Assembly (NCBI GenBank): GCA_030390025.1
Contig: CM059431.1
Location: 114,516,001 to 114,580,000 of the forward strand
Length of the DNA stretch: 64,000 nucleotides
Origin: Squalus acanthias
Taxonomy: Eukaryota
Reading direction: 5' to 3'
The notes below the pieces were generated by a model, which saw only the letters and a list, made by a program, of their open reading frames with translations, did no database searches and had not been told where the DNA came from. Positions 1 through 64,000 of this stretch are shown here, in pieces; within the stretch, counting starts at the first letter, position 1, and the number at the start of each line of letters is the position of its first letter. The position numbers and the translations under genes are program-made.

Positions 1-1213
1 TGTGGATGGACCCAGAGGCAGAGGGTCGACATGCAGCTGAGCCGAGCTGGCAGAGTCCTGTGCCCTCCGGCTAGGACTCTCCACTGCTGTCCCTGTCTCC
101 ACCATCTGCTGATGCTCACTTGTGAGCTGTGATACACCAGGTGACAACACTACTCTATGTCCCGAGGGTCCCACCGAGGTGTGAGTCTCTGCACTGGTGC
201 TGGGTGCGCTGAATTCTGCTGACGGAGCGCCCTCAGAGGTTGCAGCTTCCTCTGAGGAGTCTGGATGCTCAGGCTCTTCCTCCTGGCTAGTGGAGACGGG
301 TGCTTGCGATGGTCCTGTGGGGGAGTAAAGGAAAGAGTCAGAGATATGATGCCAAGGTTACATGCACATTGCATATTGCAGATGATCATAAATCCATCTG
401 TTAGAGCTTCAGATTCATTATCAGCGACTCATGCAATGTCAATGAGAGAGATGGAACACTATTCTGTCACCAGCTTGCTGTGATGCACCCGTCGGTCCGT
501 CCCCCACTTGCGTATCCTCCTCCACTCCTACGATCTCCAGGACCGCATCCTCCCAGGGAGTGAGCTGGGCTAATGAAGGTGGCCCTCCTCCTGTCCTGGC
601 TCTTTCCGTTTTATTGTGAGCTCTCTTTTCCTGCAATGAGGGAGACAAGTGGAGTTTGAGTGAGATTGAAGGAGTGAGTGTAGAGAATCCATAGCATAGA
701 TGCTTAGAAGGAGACAAAGATGGAGTGAGGTGGCAAGACCAAGGGCCCTCCCTGTGTGTTGTAAGTTGTTTTCATAGCATGACAGTGATAGGGAGTGTGA
801 GGGCTGCATAGTCGAATAGTAAGGTGAATGTGACCATAGAGGGAGAGGGAATGGGTAAGGGTGCATGGATGTCAGTGTCAAGTGGGATATGGAGGAAGAG
901 GTTGCTAAAGCTGAGTGCTGGTGAGGAGAGGCAATGGGGATCAGATTGAGGGTGAAGGGAAAGTCATACTCACTTTTGCAGTGCGTAGAAGGTCATGAAA
1001 CCTCTTCCTGCACTGAAGCCAGGTTCTGCGGGTTATGGACAAAGAGTTGACCTCCTGGGCGACCTGGACCCACACAGCCTTGGTCTGCTGGGGAGGCTTC
1101 TTCCTCCCTGAGGAAGGGAAGAGCACCTCTTTGTTGGCTCTTGCTCCCTCCACTAAAGCTTGCAGGGCAACGTCATCGAACCTGGGAGCAGACCTGGGTC
1201 TTTGGCTGGCCAT
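1..1213 (-). CDS. Spliced Myb/SANT-like DNA-binding protein of a PIF/Harbinger transposon (exon1 1213-974, exon2 630-471, exon3 314 to window edge; 3' partial)
   Basis: Exon1 MASQRPRSAPRFDDVALQALVEG...WVQVAQEVNSLSITRRTWLQCRKRFHDLLRTAK ends at donor GTGAGT; exon2 EKRAHNKTERARTGGGPP...LTPWEDAVLEIVG follows TTGCAG and ends at GTGACA; exon3 follows CCACAG. Phases 0 and 1 join with no stop to position 1. Confidence 0.85.
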
Positions 1214-1493
1214 TCCTCCTGCAGTTGCCTCTAAGATACAAGTCCAAAAGGTTGGCAGTCTGCAGAAGAAGCAAGGCTTGTTGCAGACCTTAAATGCAGC
1301 AGCAATGATGATGTCATCAGAGGCGACTTTCAGACTGGAATAACTCATTGGCCATGGGTTCCCACACGTTGGAACTCAATTGGCCAATTAAGTTAAAATC
1401 GCATCATTCTCCCACATCGATCTAGATTCGGGTGGGCAACACGAAAAGCGGATAACACGACCCCAACCCACCCTTAGTATCAAAATCCAGCCC
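1..1493 (-). mobile_element. PIF/Harbinger DNA transposon, one end, inserted into a CR1
   Basis: Contains the Myb-like gene; terminal AAAATCCAGCCC at 1482-1493 resembles other Harbinger-type ends here; CR1 coding sequence (YGILGFINRGI) stops abruptly at this point. Confidence 0.7.
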
Positions 1494-21731: not shown

Positions 21732-21806
21732 AACCTTGCCCAATTTCCCCTCTCTAACTCAGAGACACCGAGGCCAAATGTACCACCCTATTGTCACTCC
21801 GGCTCA

Positions 21807-22403
21807 AGGACATTCAGCCTCGGATCTGCGGGTAAGCGTTCTCCAAGGCGGCCTTCGAGACACACGACAATGCAAAATCATCGAGCAGAAACTGATAGCC
21901 AAGTTCCGCACCCATGAGGACGGCCTCAACCGAGATCTTGGGTTCATGTCACGCTACACGACGTAGAGTCATCCAGACTCGAGTCGTCGTTGGCTTGTTC
22001 ACAGATGTGATTTCCAGTAAAAAAAAGTAAAAATTTTAAAGTTTATGGTTTTCCATACAGACTGCATTTGACACATTAGACCCCCTGTGACCCCACCTCA
22101 TTGTCTCAGTTGTATCTTGCTATGTCTTTGATGTGGTGCCTTCCTGGCTGACCTGATTGTTTCTCTGCCGAGGTGTGATGAAAGGCAGTCAGATAGATTA
22201 ACTGTAGTCGTCTGAGATTGTACGCTACACAGGCATTGTTCTCTGTCTATATATGCTTTGCCGATTCGTATTCCTTCACTTCACCTGACGAAGGGGCAGC
22301 AGCTCCGAAAGCTTGTGATTTCAAATAAAACTGTTGGACTATAACCTGGTGTTGTGCGACTTCTCACTTTTGTCCACCCCAGTCCAACACCGGCATCTCT
22401 GCA
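21807..22403 (+). mobile_element. Penelope-like element, 5'-truncated (GIY-YIG C-terminus, pLTR and tail)
   Basis: GHSASDLRVSVLQGG...EQKLIAKFRTHEDGLNRDLGFMSRY; direct repeat TCACTCCGGCTCA at 21794-21806 and 22404-22416. Confidence 0.92.
22281..22318 (+). ncRNA. Minimal type I hammerhead ribozyme motif
   Basis: UCAC-CUGACGA-A-GGGGC(AGCA)GCUCC-GAAA-GC-UU-GUGA. Confidence 0.75.
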
Positions 22404-23486
22404 TCACTCCGGCTCAGATTAGCTAATTTAGCACAGACTGGATATGGAACCTGAGACCATCTTAGTCTGTAAAACTCAGCGACACATTGGATAAATTGAC
22501 TGATCCATCAAGGAAGTCACAATTTCACTTAACACTGGAATATTATTCTACATAAAGGAACCGGTACAATAGATGCTCATTCAACCCACTAACAAGAACA
22601 CCACAGAAATGATGAGTGGCCTTAAAAGACGTACTGGTTGAAAGTGACTAGGTTTGGCCCATCGCCATGCAGCAATTCTTGGTGTTGGACATTGCTCAGT
22701 AAATTGGTGCAGAGTCACTATTCACCTTTGGTTCAGTAAACATTAGTCACATAAAGGGAGGCATATTTCTCTCTCACTGTTAACAAGTTAGTAAATGTCT
22801 TAAATTTACAATAATTGTTTCTGGCCATTAGTACATTTTACAATTATAAATCAATCCAAAAAAAAAAAATTCTTCGAACCACTTCTCTGGGACACTATTA
22901 GCTTTGTTTATGATCACAGGTCACGAACTTCAATGAACTCACAGTGGCCACTGAATCTGCAACTTCTGTCTTTATGAAATTTGAAGAGTATATTTGTTAT
23001 ACTAATAGCAATAACATTGTGCAATTCTGTCTCTGCCTTCATTACAATTGTCTGTGACAGCAGTTTATTACCATGCCACTTAATATACATGAAATGTAAA
23101 AATAAGGAATAATTTGTAAATTTAATTTGTAATTTGTGCAAATTAATTTCATTACAAAAGCGACTCCACGATAATTCAAACTTGTAAATCATCTCTTTAT
23201 AAAACTTGAAAAGTATAATTGTTTTGCTCTGGGGGAAAATAATGAATTAATTATGCTAATTGGGTTTAATTTACATATGGAAATTGGGATGATTACTAAA
23301 TAGTTTTTCACTCAATATCACAATTGCCTGTTATGTGAGTATTGCTATCACTGCCGAAGGAAATGTGAATCTTTTTTCAGGATCACTCTGAAGTTGGCAA
23401 GTACTGGAATGTTTTTCACTTAGGTACGGCAGTAATAAACCCTAAGCTGTGCGTGATTTTATCACACCAGTGATTTTTTTTAAAAG

Positions 23487-39730: not shown

Positions 39731-39767
39731 ATGCCCATCTTACCAGTTTAATGTGCTTAAATTGAAG

Positions 39768-40704
39768 TGAGAAGTCGCACAACACCATGTTATAGTCCAA
39801 CAGTTTTATTTGAAATCACAAGCTTTCGGAGCTGCTGCCCCTTCGTCAGGTGAAGTGAAGGAATACGAATCGGCAAAGCATATATAGTCAGAGAACAATG
39901 CCTGTGTAGCGTACAATGTCAGACGACTACATTTTATCTTTCTGACTGCCTTTCATCACACCTCAGCAGAGAAACAATCAGGTCAGCCAGGAAGGCACCA
40001 CATCAAAGACATAGCAAGATACAACTGAGACAATGAGATGGAGTCACAGGGGGTCTAATGTGTCAAATGCAGTCTGTATGGAAAACGATAAACTTTAAAA
40101 ATTTTACTTTTTTTTTACTGGAAATCACATCTGTGAACAAGCCAACGACGACTCGAGTCTGGATGACTCTACGTCATGTAGCGTGACATGAACCCAAGAT
40201 CCCGGTTGAGGCCATCCTCATGGGTGCGGAACTTGGCTAGCAGTTTCTGCTCGATGATTTTGCGTTGTCGTGTGTCTCGAAGGCCGCCTTGGAGAACGCT
40301 TACCCGCAGATCCGAGGCTGAATGTCCTTGACTGCTGAAGTGTTCCCCGACTGGGAGGTAACAATCCTGCCTGGCGATTGTTGTGCGGTGTCCGTTCATA
40401 CGTTGTCTCAGTGTCTGCATGGTCTCGCCGATGTACCATGCTCTGGTGCATCCTTTCCTGCAATGTATGAGGTAGACAACGTTGGCCGAGTCACATGAGT
40501 ATGTACCATGTACCTGGTGGGTAGTGTCCTCACGTGTGATGATGGTATCTGTGTTGATGATCTGGCATGTCTTGCAGAGGTTGCCGTGGCAGGGTTGTGT
40601 GGTGTCGTGGTCGCTGTTATCCTGAAAGCTGGGTAATTTGCTGCGAACGATGGTACTTTTGAGGTTAGGCGGCTGTTTGAAGGCGAGTAGTGGAGGCGTG
40701 GGGA
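39768..40704 (-). mobile_element. Penelope-like element, 5'-truncated, with GIY-YIG domain
   Basis: PPLLAFKQPPNLK, PCHGNLCKTC, NVVYLIHC...WYIGET, LRQRMNGHR, GLNRDLGF; 11-bp TSD TTAAATTGAAG at 39757-39767 and 40705-40715. Confidence 0.95.
39816..39853 (-). ncRNA. Minimal hammerhead ribozyme motif
   Basis: Identical to 22281-22318. Confidence 0.75.
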
Positions 40705-40859
40705 TTAAATTGAAGGTCTACTTCCCTTCAATGCTAGAACAGGCCCAATTACAAATATTTTAAAAATTAAGGCAAGAACACTCAAATGTCCCCATATTTT
40801 GTACCATGTTTATCTCTTTTAAGTAAAGAGATCATAGACTCTGTTGATATAATTTCATA

Positions 40860-50499: not shown

Positions 50500-51720
50500 T
50501 ACAGAGCAGCAGATACTGCTACACTCCCTCTGGATAGGCAACAGGACCTCCTGCTGAGGTGCGTCCCCCTGGTGGATAAATTTGACACATGGACGTCCGA
50601 AAGATACATTTCGGAACATTTAGTCACTGTTAACGCTCACCTGCAGTGAGTGAAAACAATGAGAGAGCAAGATAAAATCTACTTCCTGCGTCTTTCAGGT
50701 GCCTCCAAGGTCCAGTCAAGGATAGATGCCAACTGCAGTAGCTATCAGGCATATCATGACCTGTGCAAGAGATTGAAACAGAAGTATATTAAGTTCTGTG
50801 ACATAGATGGTGCTATATCGACCATGTATGATACTAAACAGTTGAAAGGGGAAGACCCAAGTACCTTCAATGCTAGATTACGACATATATACCTTTCAGG
50901 AAGGGAGACAACCCAACCGAGGGATGATGCAGAATTTGCCCAAGTGTCCGGTCGCAATCTACTGCCTGAGATACAAGATAAGATTAGTCTCCATATTCAC
51001 GAAGCAATCTACCACACCTTAAAAACCCTGCTTGGAGCATAATATTATTTGAGAGTGTAATTCTATTTATAGTGCTCCCATCTGGCCAGTGTTAAAACCA
51101 GACAGAAAATGGAGAATTACAGTAGACTATAGGCAATTAAATCGCCATGTCCCTCTGTGATGCTGGCCTATGGCCCACTTAATTCAGAACCTCGCCAGAT
51201 TGACAGGAGTATAGTGTTTCACGACGTGGACAATGGGTTCTGGAACATGAGTAATAACCCCAAAGACCAGCATTAGTTGGCCTTTTCATTTAATAATCGT
51301 TAGTCTACCCAGAATTGGTGTCCATTTGGATACGCCGACTGCCCGACGGAGTTCAATATCTTCCTATACCGAGCTGTCCCTGATGCTGAACAGGGAGGTA
51401 ACCTTATCTAGGTAGATGACATTCTGATTGGTGGTCAGACTGCATCTGAACAGCTGACAGAATGAAGGCATGTGTTAGATCAGCTAAGACAGGTGGGGTT
51501 AAAAATAGCCATGATGAAAGGACAGTGGTGCTGCCCCCAGGTGAAGTATGGGGTGTACACCATTGTGCAGGAAGGAATTCTGCCGCAGAGTGACTGTGTT
51601 CAGGTCATACTAGACATGGAACCTTCTGCCAACTTGAAACAATTGAGGTGCCTCTTAGGTTTGTGTAACTACTCCCAGCAGTTCATAGAGGGCCTTGCAT
51701 GCTCATTACGTGCCATATTG
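50500..51720 (+). pseudogene. LTR retroelement / endogenous retrovirus-like gag and RT relic
   Basis: Gag-like KQLKGEDPSTFNARLRHIY; RT YSAPIWPVLKPDRKWRITVDYRQLN, DVDNGFW, CPFGYADCPTEF, LI*VDDIL (51409-51420), LRCLLGLCNYSQQFI. Confidence 0.88.
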
Positions 51721-52915: not shown

Positions 52916-53174
52916 CAGCATTTCCAAAGCCAGGTGCAGCTGCAATAATGTGGTAAATGGGAGCGGCACTGAGAGAGAAACAGCCAGAATAAGTGCCCAC
53001 CAAACTCTTCCAGGGCCTTGATCCTCACACCACCATGAAAGAGCTTCAGTTTGCCTCCACTAACCTTCAAATGTAAGATTTTATTAAGGAGTGTCATGGA
53101 CATTAAACACAAACGGGGAGCGTGACATGCAAATTCAGAATTGCATATTAAATATAAAAGTGTCTTATTGGATG

Positions 53175-53363
53175 GTGTATTGAAGCTGTCGCTAAGACCT
53201 GGTGGTTTACATCTGAGGATCCTGAGGGAAGTTTGGGAAGAAATAGTGGAAGCTCTGACTATCATTTTCCAAAAGAACATTGTGTCAGAGCCTGGAGGGT
53301 GGCAACTGTGACACCCTTCTCCAAAAAAAGGAGACAGAGATAAGCCAGGAATATAAAGGTCAG
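53175..53363 (+). mobile_element. CR1 internal fragment
   Basis: GLHLRILREVWEEIVEALTIIFQ, WRVATVTPFSKKG. Confidence 0.75.
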
Positions 53364-53377
53364 TTATTCCTATTTCA

Positions 53378-53918
53378 TGATGTGGAGATGCCGGCGTTGG
53401 ACTGGGGTGGACAAAAATGAGAAGTCGCACAACACCAGGTTATAGTCCAACAGATTTATTTAATTTTACAAGCTTTCGGAGCAGTTCGCTCCTTTGTCAG
53501 GTAAGTTTAGCAGTGAGAGAATCTCCCAGAATTCACAATTTAAACACAGACAAAATATATTCAAATCTTCATTTCACGGGTTCATGTCACGATACAGAAC
53601 GTGACTTGACATCATGGCCGGTCTTCCCAGGTGTTTTTTTTTTTAAAAAGGCTAACACAAGAACCTACACAGATTGATAGGATATGCAGCCAGCAGGTGG
53701 TTTGACACGTTGGACCCCCTGGGACACATCTCATTGTCTTGGCTATGCTCTTTGATGTAGGGAAAGATTTGAATATATTTTGTCTGTGTTTAAATTGTGA
53801 ATTCTGGGAGATTCTCTCACTGCTAAACTTACCTGACGAAGGAGCGAACTGCTCCAAAAGCTTGTAAAATTAAATAAATCTGTTGGACTATAACCTGGTG
53901 TTGTGCGACTTCTCATTT
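53378..53918. mobile_element. Penelope-like insertion with inverted pLTR arms
   Basis: 14-bp TSD TTATTCCTATTTCA at 53364-53377 and 53919-53932; 157-bp arms 53413-53569 / 53764-53920 with 2 differences; ORF end GFMSRYRT* at 53578-53604 (+). Confidence 0.92.
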
Positions 53919-53949
53919 TTATTCCTATTTCAAACAGCCGTAAACTCCT

Positions 53950-54035
53950 GGGGTAGATTTTTGTCTTCGCCACCTGGGCAGTAATTTGGCAGAGCAGATC
54001 ATCCACCTGTTATAAAAGCTGCCCGATTTTTGTTC
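53950..54035. mobile_element. Half MITE (27435/34170 family)
   Basis: GGGGTAGATTTTTGTCTTCGCCACCTGGGCAGTAATTTGGCAGAGCAGATCA. Confidence 0.6.
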
Positions 54036-54779
54036 CAGATAAAGTTGCGATTATTATGGGGTGGGGTGGAGATGAGAGAAGAATTGTTGAAGAAGTGCCA
54101 TAGAATTGCCTCAGCATGTGTCCTCAAAATGGAGTCAGTAGTCAGACAGAATGCTAGGAAAAAAAGGAGCTAATGCTAATTAAACCATGAAGTCTTATAC
54201 AAACAAAGCTCTCTCTACCAGGGAGAGAAAGCAAGCCATCAAGACTACAGGCCTGGAGATGGCTCATTAAGGAGTACATAAAGACCTGTGTGCGACCCCT
54301 TTGTTAGCAAAGACCTGAGAGGTTAGGGAGTAAACGAATGACTTGACATGTCCACGTGCCAGTGGTTCATTGATTTTGAGGTCATCAGGGGTATTAACAG
54401 TGCTGTGTGAGGTGACTGACACCAGAAGGGCCGAACCCTTCTAACACGTGTCATTCAGATCGGTTAATAGAATTGAGGAGGTTTCTTTGGAAATTAAGGA
54501 TATATTAGATCGTGCTTTTGACACTAAAGTCTCAGTCTTCAGTCCTTAGTTTAGTTCTAGTTCTTTTAGTAGTTCTTGTCATTGCCAGTGTAGTAGCAGG
54601 TGGAGGGCCTTTTGTCTGGTATATGTTGAAGGGTGTTTCTGTAAAATCAAAAGTGCACCTCCAACAGAGAGCGAAAGGATATATACAGGCAGATATAAGT
54701 GTGTCACTTAGAGAAGTTTCCCTGAGATCAAGGCAGGTGAGATTTAAGGCAGCTTGAGCTAATAAGTTAAAGGGGTGGC

Positions 54780-63903: not shown

Positions 63904-64000
63904 GTGAGAAGTCGCACAACACCAGGTTATAGTCCAACAGCTTTATTTGAAATCACAAGCTTTCGGAGCGCTGCTCCTTCGTCAGGTGAAGTGAAGAGAT
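63904..64000 (-). mobile_element. Penelope-like pLTR end (runs off window) with hammerhead motif at 63953-63989
   Basis: Minus strand UCAC-CUGACGA-A-GGAGC(AGC)GCUCC-GAAA-GC-UU-GUGA, then AATAAAGCTGTTGGACTATAACCTGG. Confidence 0.9.

What the first reader, a model, noticed from the sequence alone, without database searches (positions are those of the whole stretch)
53364..53932. TSD-flanked Penelope mini-element with inverted arms whose only two differences both hit the hammerhead core
Seen: one 541-bp insertion (14-bp TSD) with 157-bp inverted arms, each holding a hammerhead motif. The left arm has G8->A (CUGACAA), the right arm G12->A (AAAA); all other positions are identical. Only the left arm has the tail extension; the ORF end lies in the spacer on the opposite strand. 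Established: G8 and G12 are the catalytic residues, and inverted pLTR arrangements are known. Inference: an inverted/template-switch integration. Both changes are at CpGs, so methyl-C deamination can explain them, but selection against self-cleavage in a host transcript is testable. A transcript would form long dsRNA.
Basis: partly seen in the sequence, partly recalled or inferred. Interest (0 to 1): 0.7.

Follow-up and report, generated by a model that had tools for sequence, protein, structure and literature searches.

The report
Truncated Penelope copy with inverted end
This is an ordinary, recent, truncated copy of a Penelope-type jumping gene in a cartilaginous fish, with one end duplicated back-to-front, and the two changes that would disable its small self-cutting RNA motifs are likely chance mutations at methylation hotspots.

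Summary
In detail: a 541-nt insertion, a 14-bp TSD, 157-nt inverted arms differing only at hammerhead G8 (left) and G12 (right), and a 35-nt tail on the left arm only. Two related organisms carry the empty site with one TSD copy.

The 'spacer' is the element's own body (ORF end plus 3' UTR) running into the right arm. So this is a 5'-truncated Penelope-like copy (Neptune-type by its sister copy) with an inverted 5' pLTR, an arrangement already described. It likely arose by priming on both target strands and joining the two cDNAs over an 8-nt templated filler.

The double core hit is unlikely at one locus (about 1 in 500 to 1 in 4,000), but a rough count puts 0.1-5 such loci in a scan of this size. 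Selection against self-cleavage fits poorly. These minimal hammerheads are predicted to need a same-sense partner, a copy's G8/G12 would cut the partner rather than itself, and a read-through RNA would bury the motif in a 157-bp duplex. No host gene was found. The family-wide core versus non-core CpG test remains open. Interest is low.

The parts
53364..53377 (.). left target-site duplication (14 bp)
   Evidence: single copy at the empty site in organisms B and C
53378..53412 (-). 35-nt 'tail' extension, left end only
   Evidence: many family contigs end at 53371-53381 and at 53412 (table 7), the two recurrent family ends
53413..53569 (-). inverted, 5'-truncated pLTR (left arm, 157 nt)
53466..53504 (-). 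left minimal type I hammerhead motif; G8 replaced by A at 53495; predicted cut between 53470 and 53469
53570..53577 (+). 8-nt filler at the inner junction, a 1-mismatch copy of 53583-53590
53578..53604 (+). last 8 codons and stop of the RT-endonuclease ORF (GFMSRYRT*)
   Evidence: sister copies end GFMSRYTT*/GFMSRYMT*; P0001 ends GFMSHYM
53605..53763 (+). 3' untranslated body of the element, continuous with the right arm
   Evidence: alignment with the copies at 22 kb and 40 kb; covered by family contigs in organism A only
53764..53920 (+). right arm: 3' pLTR end without tail; last 2 nt shared with the TSD
53829..53867 (+). right minimal type I hammerhead motif; G12 replaced by A at 53856; predicted cut between 53863 and 53864
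53919..53932 (.). right target-site duplication (14 bp)
   Evidence: junction bridged by X2 record 16 with 0 differences

Best explanation
This is a dead, 5'-truncated Penelope-like retrotransposon copy with an inverted 5' pLTR, likely made when the element's enzyme nicked both target strands 14 bp apart and primed a cDNA on each, and its two hammerhead changes are likely neutral methyl-CpG deaminations after insertion. Inferred steps: one cDNA started at the tail-plus site and ran 192 nt (left arm), the other started at the tail-less site and ran about 343 nt to the ORF end (right arm plus body), and the two 3' ends were joined with a short templated filler. The core is a natural hotspot: the conserved C11.1 before G12 forces one CpG, and C7 before G8 gives another, so two of the four arm CpGs sit on catalytic Gs.
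For: Shown: TSD and empty orthologous site in 2 of 2 related organisms laid. Body and right arm are collinear with two non-inverted copies in the window. The sister copy's ORF is 89% identical to a shark protein with an RT domain. Shorter inverted forms are common in the family: 13 of the 15 joints shown (of 90 found) join the left arm straight to the right arm. From papers: inverted 5' copy plus a 30-40 bp tail at one end is the usual PLE arrangement (PMC8557442); the same with 9-10 bp TSDs in a rotifer (PMC3846280); paired min-HHRs 100-700 bp apart on opposite strands already noted (PMC4209133); a PLE protein nicks and extends both strands and starts at two sites that bound the tail (PMC11167929). 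For neutrality: CpG positions change about 3.3 times faster between two sister copies (4 of 52 against 12 of 514). A non-core CpG (53426) is changed in 6-7% of summed depth in both organism A runs. A rough expectation for 'both arms hit at G8 or G12 and nothing else' is 0.1-5 loci, assuming 4 insertions per window, 1163 windows, 5-25% carrying two hammerheads and 2-7% change per CpG position (window number).
Against: At this one locus the coincidence is not trivial. The chance that two changes both fall on catalytic Gs, one per arm, is 0.0002-0.002 for CpG rate ratios of 3.3-15, and 0.009 even given that both are CpG changes. None of the 11 non-core CpG sites in the insertion is visibly lost. 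The three other window copies keep G8 and G12 (6 of 6 positions). The scan-wide expectation rests on assumed inputs extrapolated from one window. Priming on both strands is shown only in vitro for a Poseidon element, not for this family. Arkhipova et al. favour self-priming on an antisense template.
Confidence: 0.8

Rival explanations
1. The two changes were already in the RNA templates: the arms were copied from two different RNAs of ribozyme-dead source loci, and arms that run through the hammerhead come preferentially from RNAs that were not cut.
For: The arms are best read as two separate cDNAs (different start sites, filler at the join). In one search, 13 of 15 joints shown link arms that both stop at or 3' of the predicted cut site. 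The per-locus coincidence is small under neutrality.
Against: Three of three other window copies run through an intact hammerhead. Unprocessed RNA is the dominant template in vitro and core mutants do not change insertion (PMC11167929). The short arms are equally explained by short contigs and by sister subfamilies that stop aligning at 53872/53461; three joints in table 5c do cross the cut site. In the dimer fold a copy's own G8/G12 would not govern its own cutting.
Confidence: 0.09
2. One reading: the insertion lies in a host transcript, and selection fixed core changes because self-cleavage was harmful.
For: Each arm has a disabling change and there are almost no other private changes. Tandem retrozymes are reported as depleted from introns and exons in Xenopus (bioRxiv 10.64898/2026.07.22.740005, passages).
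Against: Single min-HHRs showed no cleavage in vitro (PMC4209133), and a PLE hammerhead cut only with the element's protein. With the AGCU palindrome as helix III, each centre uses G8/G12 of one copy to cut the other copy (modelled), so these changes would not protect this RNA. On either strand the sense hammerhead is transcribed after its complement, and 5 of 6 core positions tested are predicted paired to the other arm at probability 0.92 or more (the sixth is the mismatch). Only one arm is sense in any one transcript. A crude exon scan found no recognisable host exon.
Confidence: 0.05
3. The changes came from enzymatic C-to-U editing of the first-strand cDNA during integration, since both are G-to-A on the RNA-sense strand in a CGAA context.
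For: Both changes have that polarity and context; the one family CpG variant listed (53426) has the same polarity.
Against: Two same-polarity changes have a 1 in 4 chance under ordinary deamination. All 4 CpG transitions between the 22 kb and 40 kb copies have the opposite polarity. No non-CpG G-to-A cluster is seen.
Confidence: 0.03
4. The 541-nt structure is a non-autonomous family unit that is copied as a whole, or arose by fold-back self-priming.
For: The subfamily is abundant in organism A (summed depth 1e5-1e6 against 14-21 on single-copy flanks; not a copy number). Self-priming is proposed in PMC3846280.
Against: No second copy of the unit in the window. The junction has a local templated filler and no palindrome. 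Summed depth dips in the junction bin (weak). Other inverted copies have many different junctions.
Confidence: 0.05

Closest known systems
EN+ Penelope-like elements with inverted 5' pLTR and tail (Pen2/Pen2a of Adineta vaga, PMC3846280; general scheme in PMC8557442)
   Same: 5'-truncated body, inverted shorter pLTR at the 5' end, 30-40 nt tail on one end only, TSD of variable length, hammerhead in the pLTR
   Different: very short body (8 codons); 14-bp TSD; no palindrome at the inner junction but a templated filler; core changes in both hammerheads
Neptune clade PLEs of cartilaginous fishes (e.g. P0001 from Heptranchias perlo)
   Same: sister copy 89% identical over 178 aa, C-x4-C-x2-C linker before the endonuclease motif, same ORF end
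   Different: this subfamily's 3' UTR is distinct and had no cover at 90% identity in organisms B and C; clade placement by RT tree not done
Minimal type I hammerheads of metazoan PLEs (PMC4209133)
   Same: CUGANGA plus one extra nucleotide, G10.1-C11.1, GAAA, 4-bp helix I, palindromic AGCU in place of helix III, dimer-type fold possible
   Different: 5-bp helix II; G8A in one arm and G12A in the other; arms inverted, so no dimer in cis
LINE-1 twin-priming inversions (recalled, no call)
   Same: 5' inversion inside one TSD, explained by priming from both target strands
   Different: here the two cDNAs overlap by 157 nt and both begin at element 3' ends, giving inverted repeats rather than one inverted segment
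Non-LTR retrozymes (bioRxiv 10.64898/2026.07.22.740005)
   Same: short, non-coding, pLTR-related, hammerhead-bearing
   Different: retrozymes are same-orientation tandem repeats; this is a single inverted insertion

Membership tests
EN+ Penelope-like element | pLTR bearing a hammerhead motif | tested here: met
   motif in both arms and in three sister copies; not detected by Rfam
EN+ Penelope-like element | 5' truncation with adjacent inverted pLTR | tested here: met
EN+ Penelope-like element | 30-40 nt tail at one end | tested here: met
   35 nt, left end only; recurrent family ends
EN+ Penelope-like element | target-site duplication of variable length | tested here: met
   14 bp with empty site in two relatives; 12 and 11 bp at two sister copies
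EN+ Penelope-like element | single ORF with RT and C-terminal GIY-YIG endonuclease | tested here: inconclusive
   this copy keeps 8 codons only. The sister fragment matches RT-bearing proteins and shows VVYLIHC...C...WYIGET by eye, but had no Pfam hit itself and no PDB hit; PF01541 is on record for 4 of its 54 relatives
Neptune clade | CX2-5CxxC linker before the endonuclease | tested here: met
   C-x4-C-x2-C in the sister copy at 40169-40717 and in P0001; definition from PMC8557442; the motif is shared with Nematis
Neptune clade | RT phylogeny | not tested
   no RT of this subfamily in the window; no tree built
Active hammerhead ribozyme | intact core including G8 and G12 | tested here: not met
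   G8A left, G12A right
Active hammerhead ribozyme | self-cleavage | not testable with these tools
   needs an assay; single min-HHRs were inactive in PMC4209133
Non-LTR retrozyme | same-orientation tandem units with two or more hammerheads | tested here: not met
   arms are inverted, one unit
MITE-like or non-autonomous family unit | terminal inverted repeats reaching both ends | tested here: not met
   left arm starts 35 nt inside the insertion
MITE-like or non-autonomous family unit | same unit recurring at many loci | tested here: inconclusive
   one copy in the window; no listed contig piece bridges the inner junction (most pieces not shown); no genome assembly searched

The most novel reading that the evidence does not exclude
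The two arms are a fossil of a two-template integration, in which a dimeric Penelope enzyme copied two different RNAs into one site, and hammerhead cutting acts as a length governor on new copies, so that arms reaching past the ribozyme are enriched for core-dead templates. That would give the first genomic read-out of what PLE hammerheads do in vivo.
Probability: 0.08. Interest if true: 0.6.

Novelty: new member of a known kind. Interest (0 to 1): 0.17.

Why it matters
As it stands it is a clean example of a known insertion type. It is useful mainly because the empty site is verified and the two arms show both start sites reported in vitro in one event. The role of PLE hammerheads in vivo is open (PMC4209133, PMC11167929), and a young, abundant subfamily with two CpGs on catalytic Gs would be a good natural test: an excess of core changes over other CpGs would show that cutting matters in the host or in template choice. 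This single locus cannot show that.

Tried and rejected
Rfam: no hammerhead hit at either threshold. No whole genome is held for this window, so no assembly-level copy count was possible. Pattern scans for family copies: 0 in metagenome contigs, 0 in viral contigs. Protein scan of metagenome contigs: 3 of 109 candidates confirmed, only 27-32% identical and of no use for the CpG test. No RNA holder listed among 24 runs; this says nothing about expression. One search gave no allele shares at G8 or G12: no row is listed there, apparently because contigs that fit both arms are left out of that table (my inference). I first read 53678 as a third, non-core CpG decay and computed p = 0.035; the site is not a CpG, so that figure is withdrawn and replaced by the less favourable 0.009-0.014. 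Host gene: a crude splice-site scan listed candidates, none recognisable by eye; the ORF at 50650-51042 had no Pfam hit or homologue; this does not show the locus is intergenic. Earlier findings: nothing by place, words or sequence. Literature: no relevant paper listed for selection on hammerhead cores in genomic copies (2 unrelated listings), for twin priming in Penelope (2 unrelated listings), or for a shark Neptune family (15 of 19 listed, none specific by title). Lunse et al. 2016 on dimer cleavage is not held; only its title was seen. Supplements were not read; alignments in PMC4209133 supplements may include this motif family.

Full report
Observation. A 14-nt exact direct repeat (53364-53377, 53919-53932) encloses 541 nt, and two 157-nt arms (53413-53569, 53764-53920) are 99% complementary. 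They differ at two columns only: 53495, where the left arm reads CUGACAA for CUGACGA, and 53856, where the right arm reads AAAA for GAAA. Both lie in CpGs; the inferred ancestral arm has four CpG sites. The left arm carries a 35-nt extension also seen at the end of a sister copy near 22.4 kb. Rfam finds no hammerhead here, so the ribozyme call rests on the motif and on hand-set folds.

What it is. On the + strand, 53578-53604 reads GFMSRYRT*, the end of the ORF. From there to 53920 the sequence is collinear with two non-inverted copies in the window. One of these (ORF 40169-40717, minus strand) encodes a C-x4-C-x2-C linker followed by a GIY-YIG-like motif and is 89% identical to a shark protein with an RT domain. 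The linker marks the Neptune and Nematis clades (PMC8557442, passages); I built no RT tree. So the 'spacer' is the body of a 5'-truncated Penelope-like element, and the left arm is an inverted, shorter pLTR with the tail. The window holds four insertions of this superfamily with five hammerhead motifs; the three plain copies keep G8 and G12, and two of them show TSDs of 12 and 11 nt (the third is cut by the window end).

Other genomes. Contigs of four runs were laid on 53150-54150 at 90% identity. In organisms B and C, one contig each joins 53363 directly to 53919, an empty site with one TSD copy and flanks about 97% identical (6 differences in 214 nt). The insertion is therefore real and younger than that split. 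The body of this subfamily has essentially no cover in B and C but very high summed depth in both organism A runs; depth is not a copy number, but it points to a large recent expansion. Family contigs end repeatedly at the tail end and at the tail-less end. Of 90 joints, 15 are shown, and 13 of these join the left arm straight to the right arm at varied points, so shorter inverted copies recur in all three organisms. The table gave no allele shares at G8 or G12.

What is in print. An inverted 5'-truncated copy next to the element, with a 30-40 bp tail on one end, is the usual PLE arrangement (PMC8557442, passages). The same with 9-10 bp TSDs is described in a rotifer (PMC3846280, passages and Discussion). 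Pairs of minimal hammerheads 100-700 bp apart on opposite strands were already noted, and a single motif showed no cleavage (PMC4209133, parts 1-2 of 4). A purified PLE protein nicks and extends both target strands, starts at two sites that bound the tail, uses unprocessed RNA, and its hammerhead cuts only with protein present (PMC11167929, passages and part 2 of 4). G12A slows a hammerhead by 500-fold to a million-fold (PMC2553840, passages).

Likely mechanism of the structure (inferred). Staggered nicks 14 bp apart gave two primers. One cDNA began at the tail-plus site and ran 192 nt; the other began at the tail-less site and ran about 343 nt. The inner junction carries 8 nt that copy, with one mismatch, a sequence 13 nt downstream, which resembles templated insertions made in end joining (recalled) and is not a clean template switch or a fold-back palindrome. 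The right end shares 2 nt with the target.

The two core changes. Taken alone the coincidence is unlikely: 0.0002-0.002 for both changes to fall on catalytic Gs, one per arm, at CpG rate ratios of 3.3-15, and 0.009 given that both are CpG changes. An earlier figure that counted 53678 as a third CpG decay was wrong and is withdrawn. But the core is a built-in hotspot: C11.1 before G12 is conserved (PMC4209133) and forces one CpG, and all five window motifs have C7. CpG positions change about 3.3 times faster between two sister copies (4 of 52 against 12 of 514), and one non-core CpG is changed in 6-7% of depth in organism A. With 4 insertions per window, 1163 windows noted in this genome, 5-25% carrying two hammerheads and 2-7% change per CpG position, 0.4-21 loci would have both arms hit and 0.1-5 would have nothing else changed. 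These inputs are assumed or taken from one window, so this shows only that chance is enough.

Why host selection against self-cleavage fits poorly. Helix III is only the palindrome AGCU, so the motif is predicted to need a same-sense partner, which inverted arms cannot supply. In the modelled dimer each catalytic centre takes G8 and G12 from one copy and cuts the other copy, so these changes would not protect their own RNA; this is a model, and protein-assisted monomer cutting is not excluded. In a read-through RNA from either side the sense hammerhead comes after its complement and is predicted to be locked in the 157-bp duplex. I found no recognisable host exon, which is weak. In favour of some selection, tandem retrozymes are reported as depleted from genes in Xenopus (bioRxiv 10.64898/2026.07.22.740005, passages), but that concerns dimer-competent arrays and their presence, not later point changes.

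Verdict. A new member of a known kind, with a striking but probably accidental pair of mutations (0.8). The boldest reading left open is two-template integration with enrichment for ribozyme-dead templates (0.08). The family-wide comparison of core and non-core CpGs, and the recurrence of the inner junction, were not obtained and would settle it. My searches listed no paper that makes this comparison.

Noticed in passing
window 53440-53467 joined to 53864-53892 (contig joints): 13 of 15 joints shown link inverted arms that both stop at or 3' of the predicted hammerhead cut site; two begin at 53864 or 53865. This could mark cut templates, or only short contigs and loss of alignment to sister subfamilies.
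   Followed up: partly
window 39765-40707 (-): 5'-truncated Neptune-type copy with endonuclease fragment, intact hammerhead, no tail, 11-bp TSD.
   Followed up: yes
window 21793-22416 (+): 5'-truncated sister copy, 97% identical to the 40 kb copy, intact hammerhead, with tail, 12-bp TSD.
   Followed up: yes
window 63905-64000 (-): Third sister copy cut by the window end; intact hammerhead with a different loop II, no tail.
   Followed up: partly
window 21804-22369 against 39765-40331: All 4 CpG transitions between these copies are C-to-T on the element's sense strand; small numbers.
   Followed up: no
window 53180-53363: The insertion sits in what looks like an old CR1-type LINE fragment (recalled resemblance, not tested).
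   Followed up: no
window 941-1375 (-): ORF with a Myb/SANT-like domain (PF13873), probably from a Harbinger-type transposon (recalled).
   Followed up: partly
window 50650-51042 (+): 130-aa open frame with no Pfam hit and no homologue among longer proteins.
   Followed up: partly
one search hits P0008, P0009, P0021, P0025, P0027, P0047: Several annotated shark gene isoforms (septin 5a, XRCC5, a cytochrome P450 and others) contain this element's endonuclease fragment: exonised copies or annotation artefacts.
   Followed up: no
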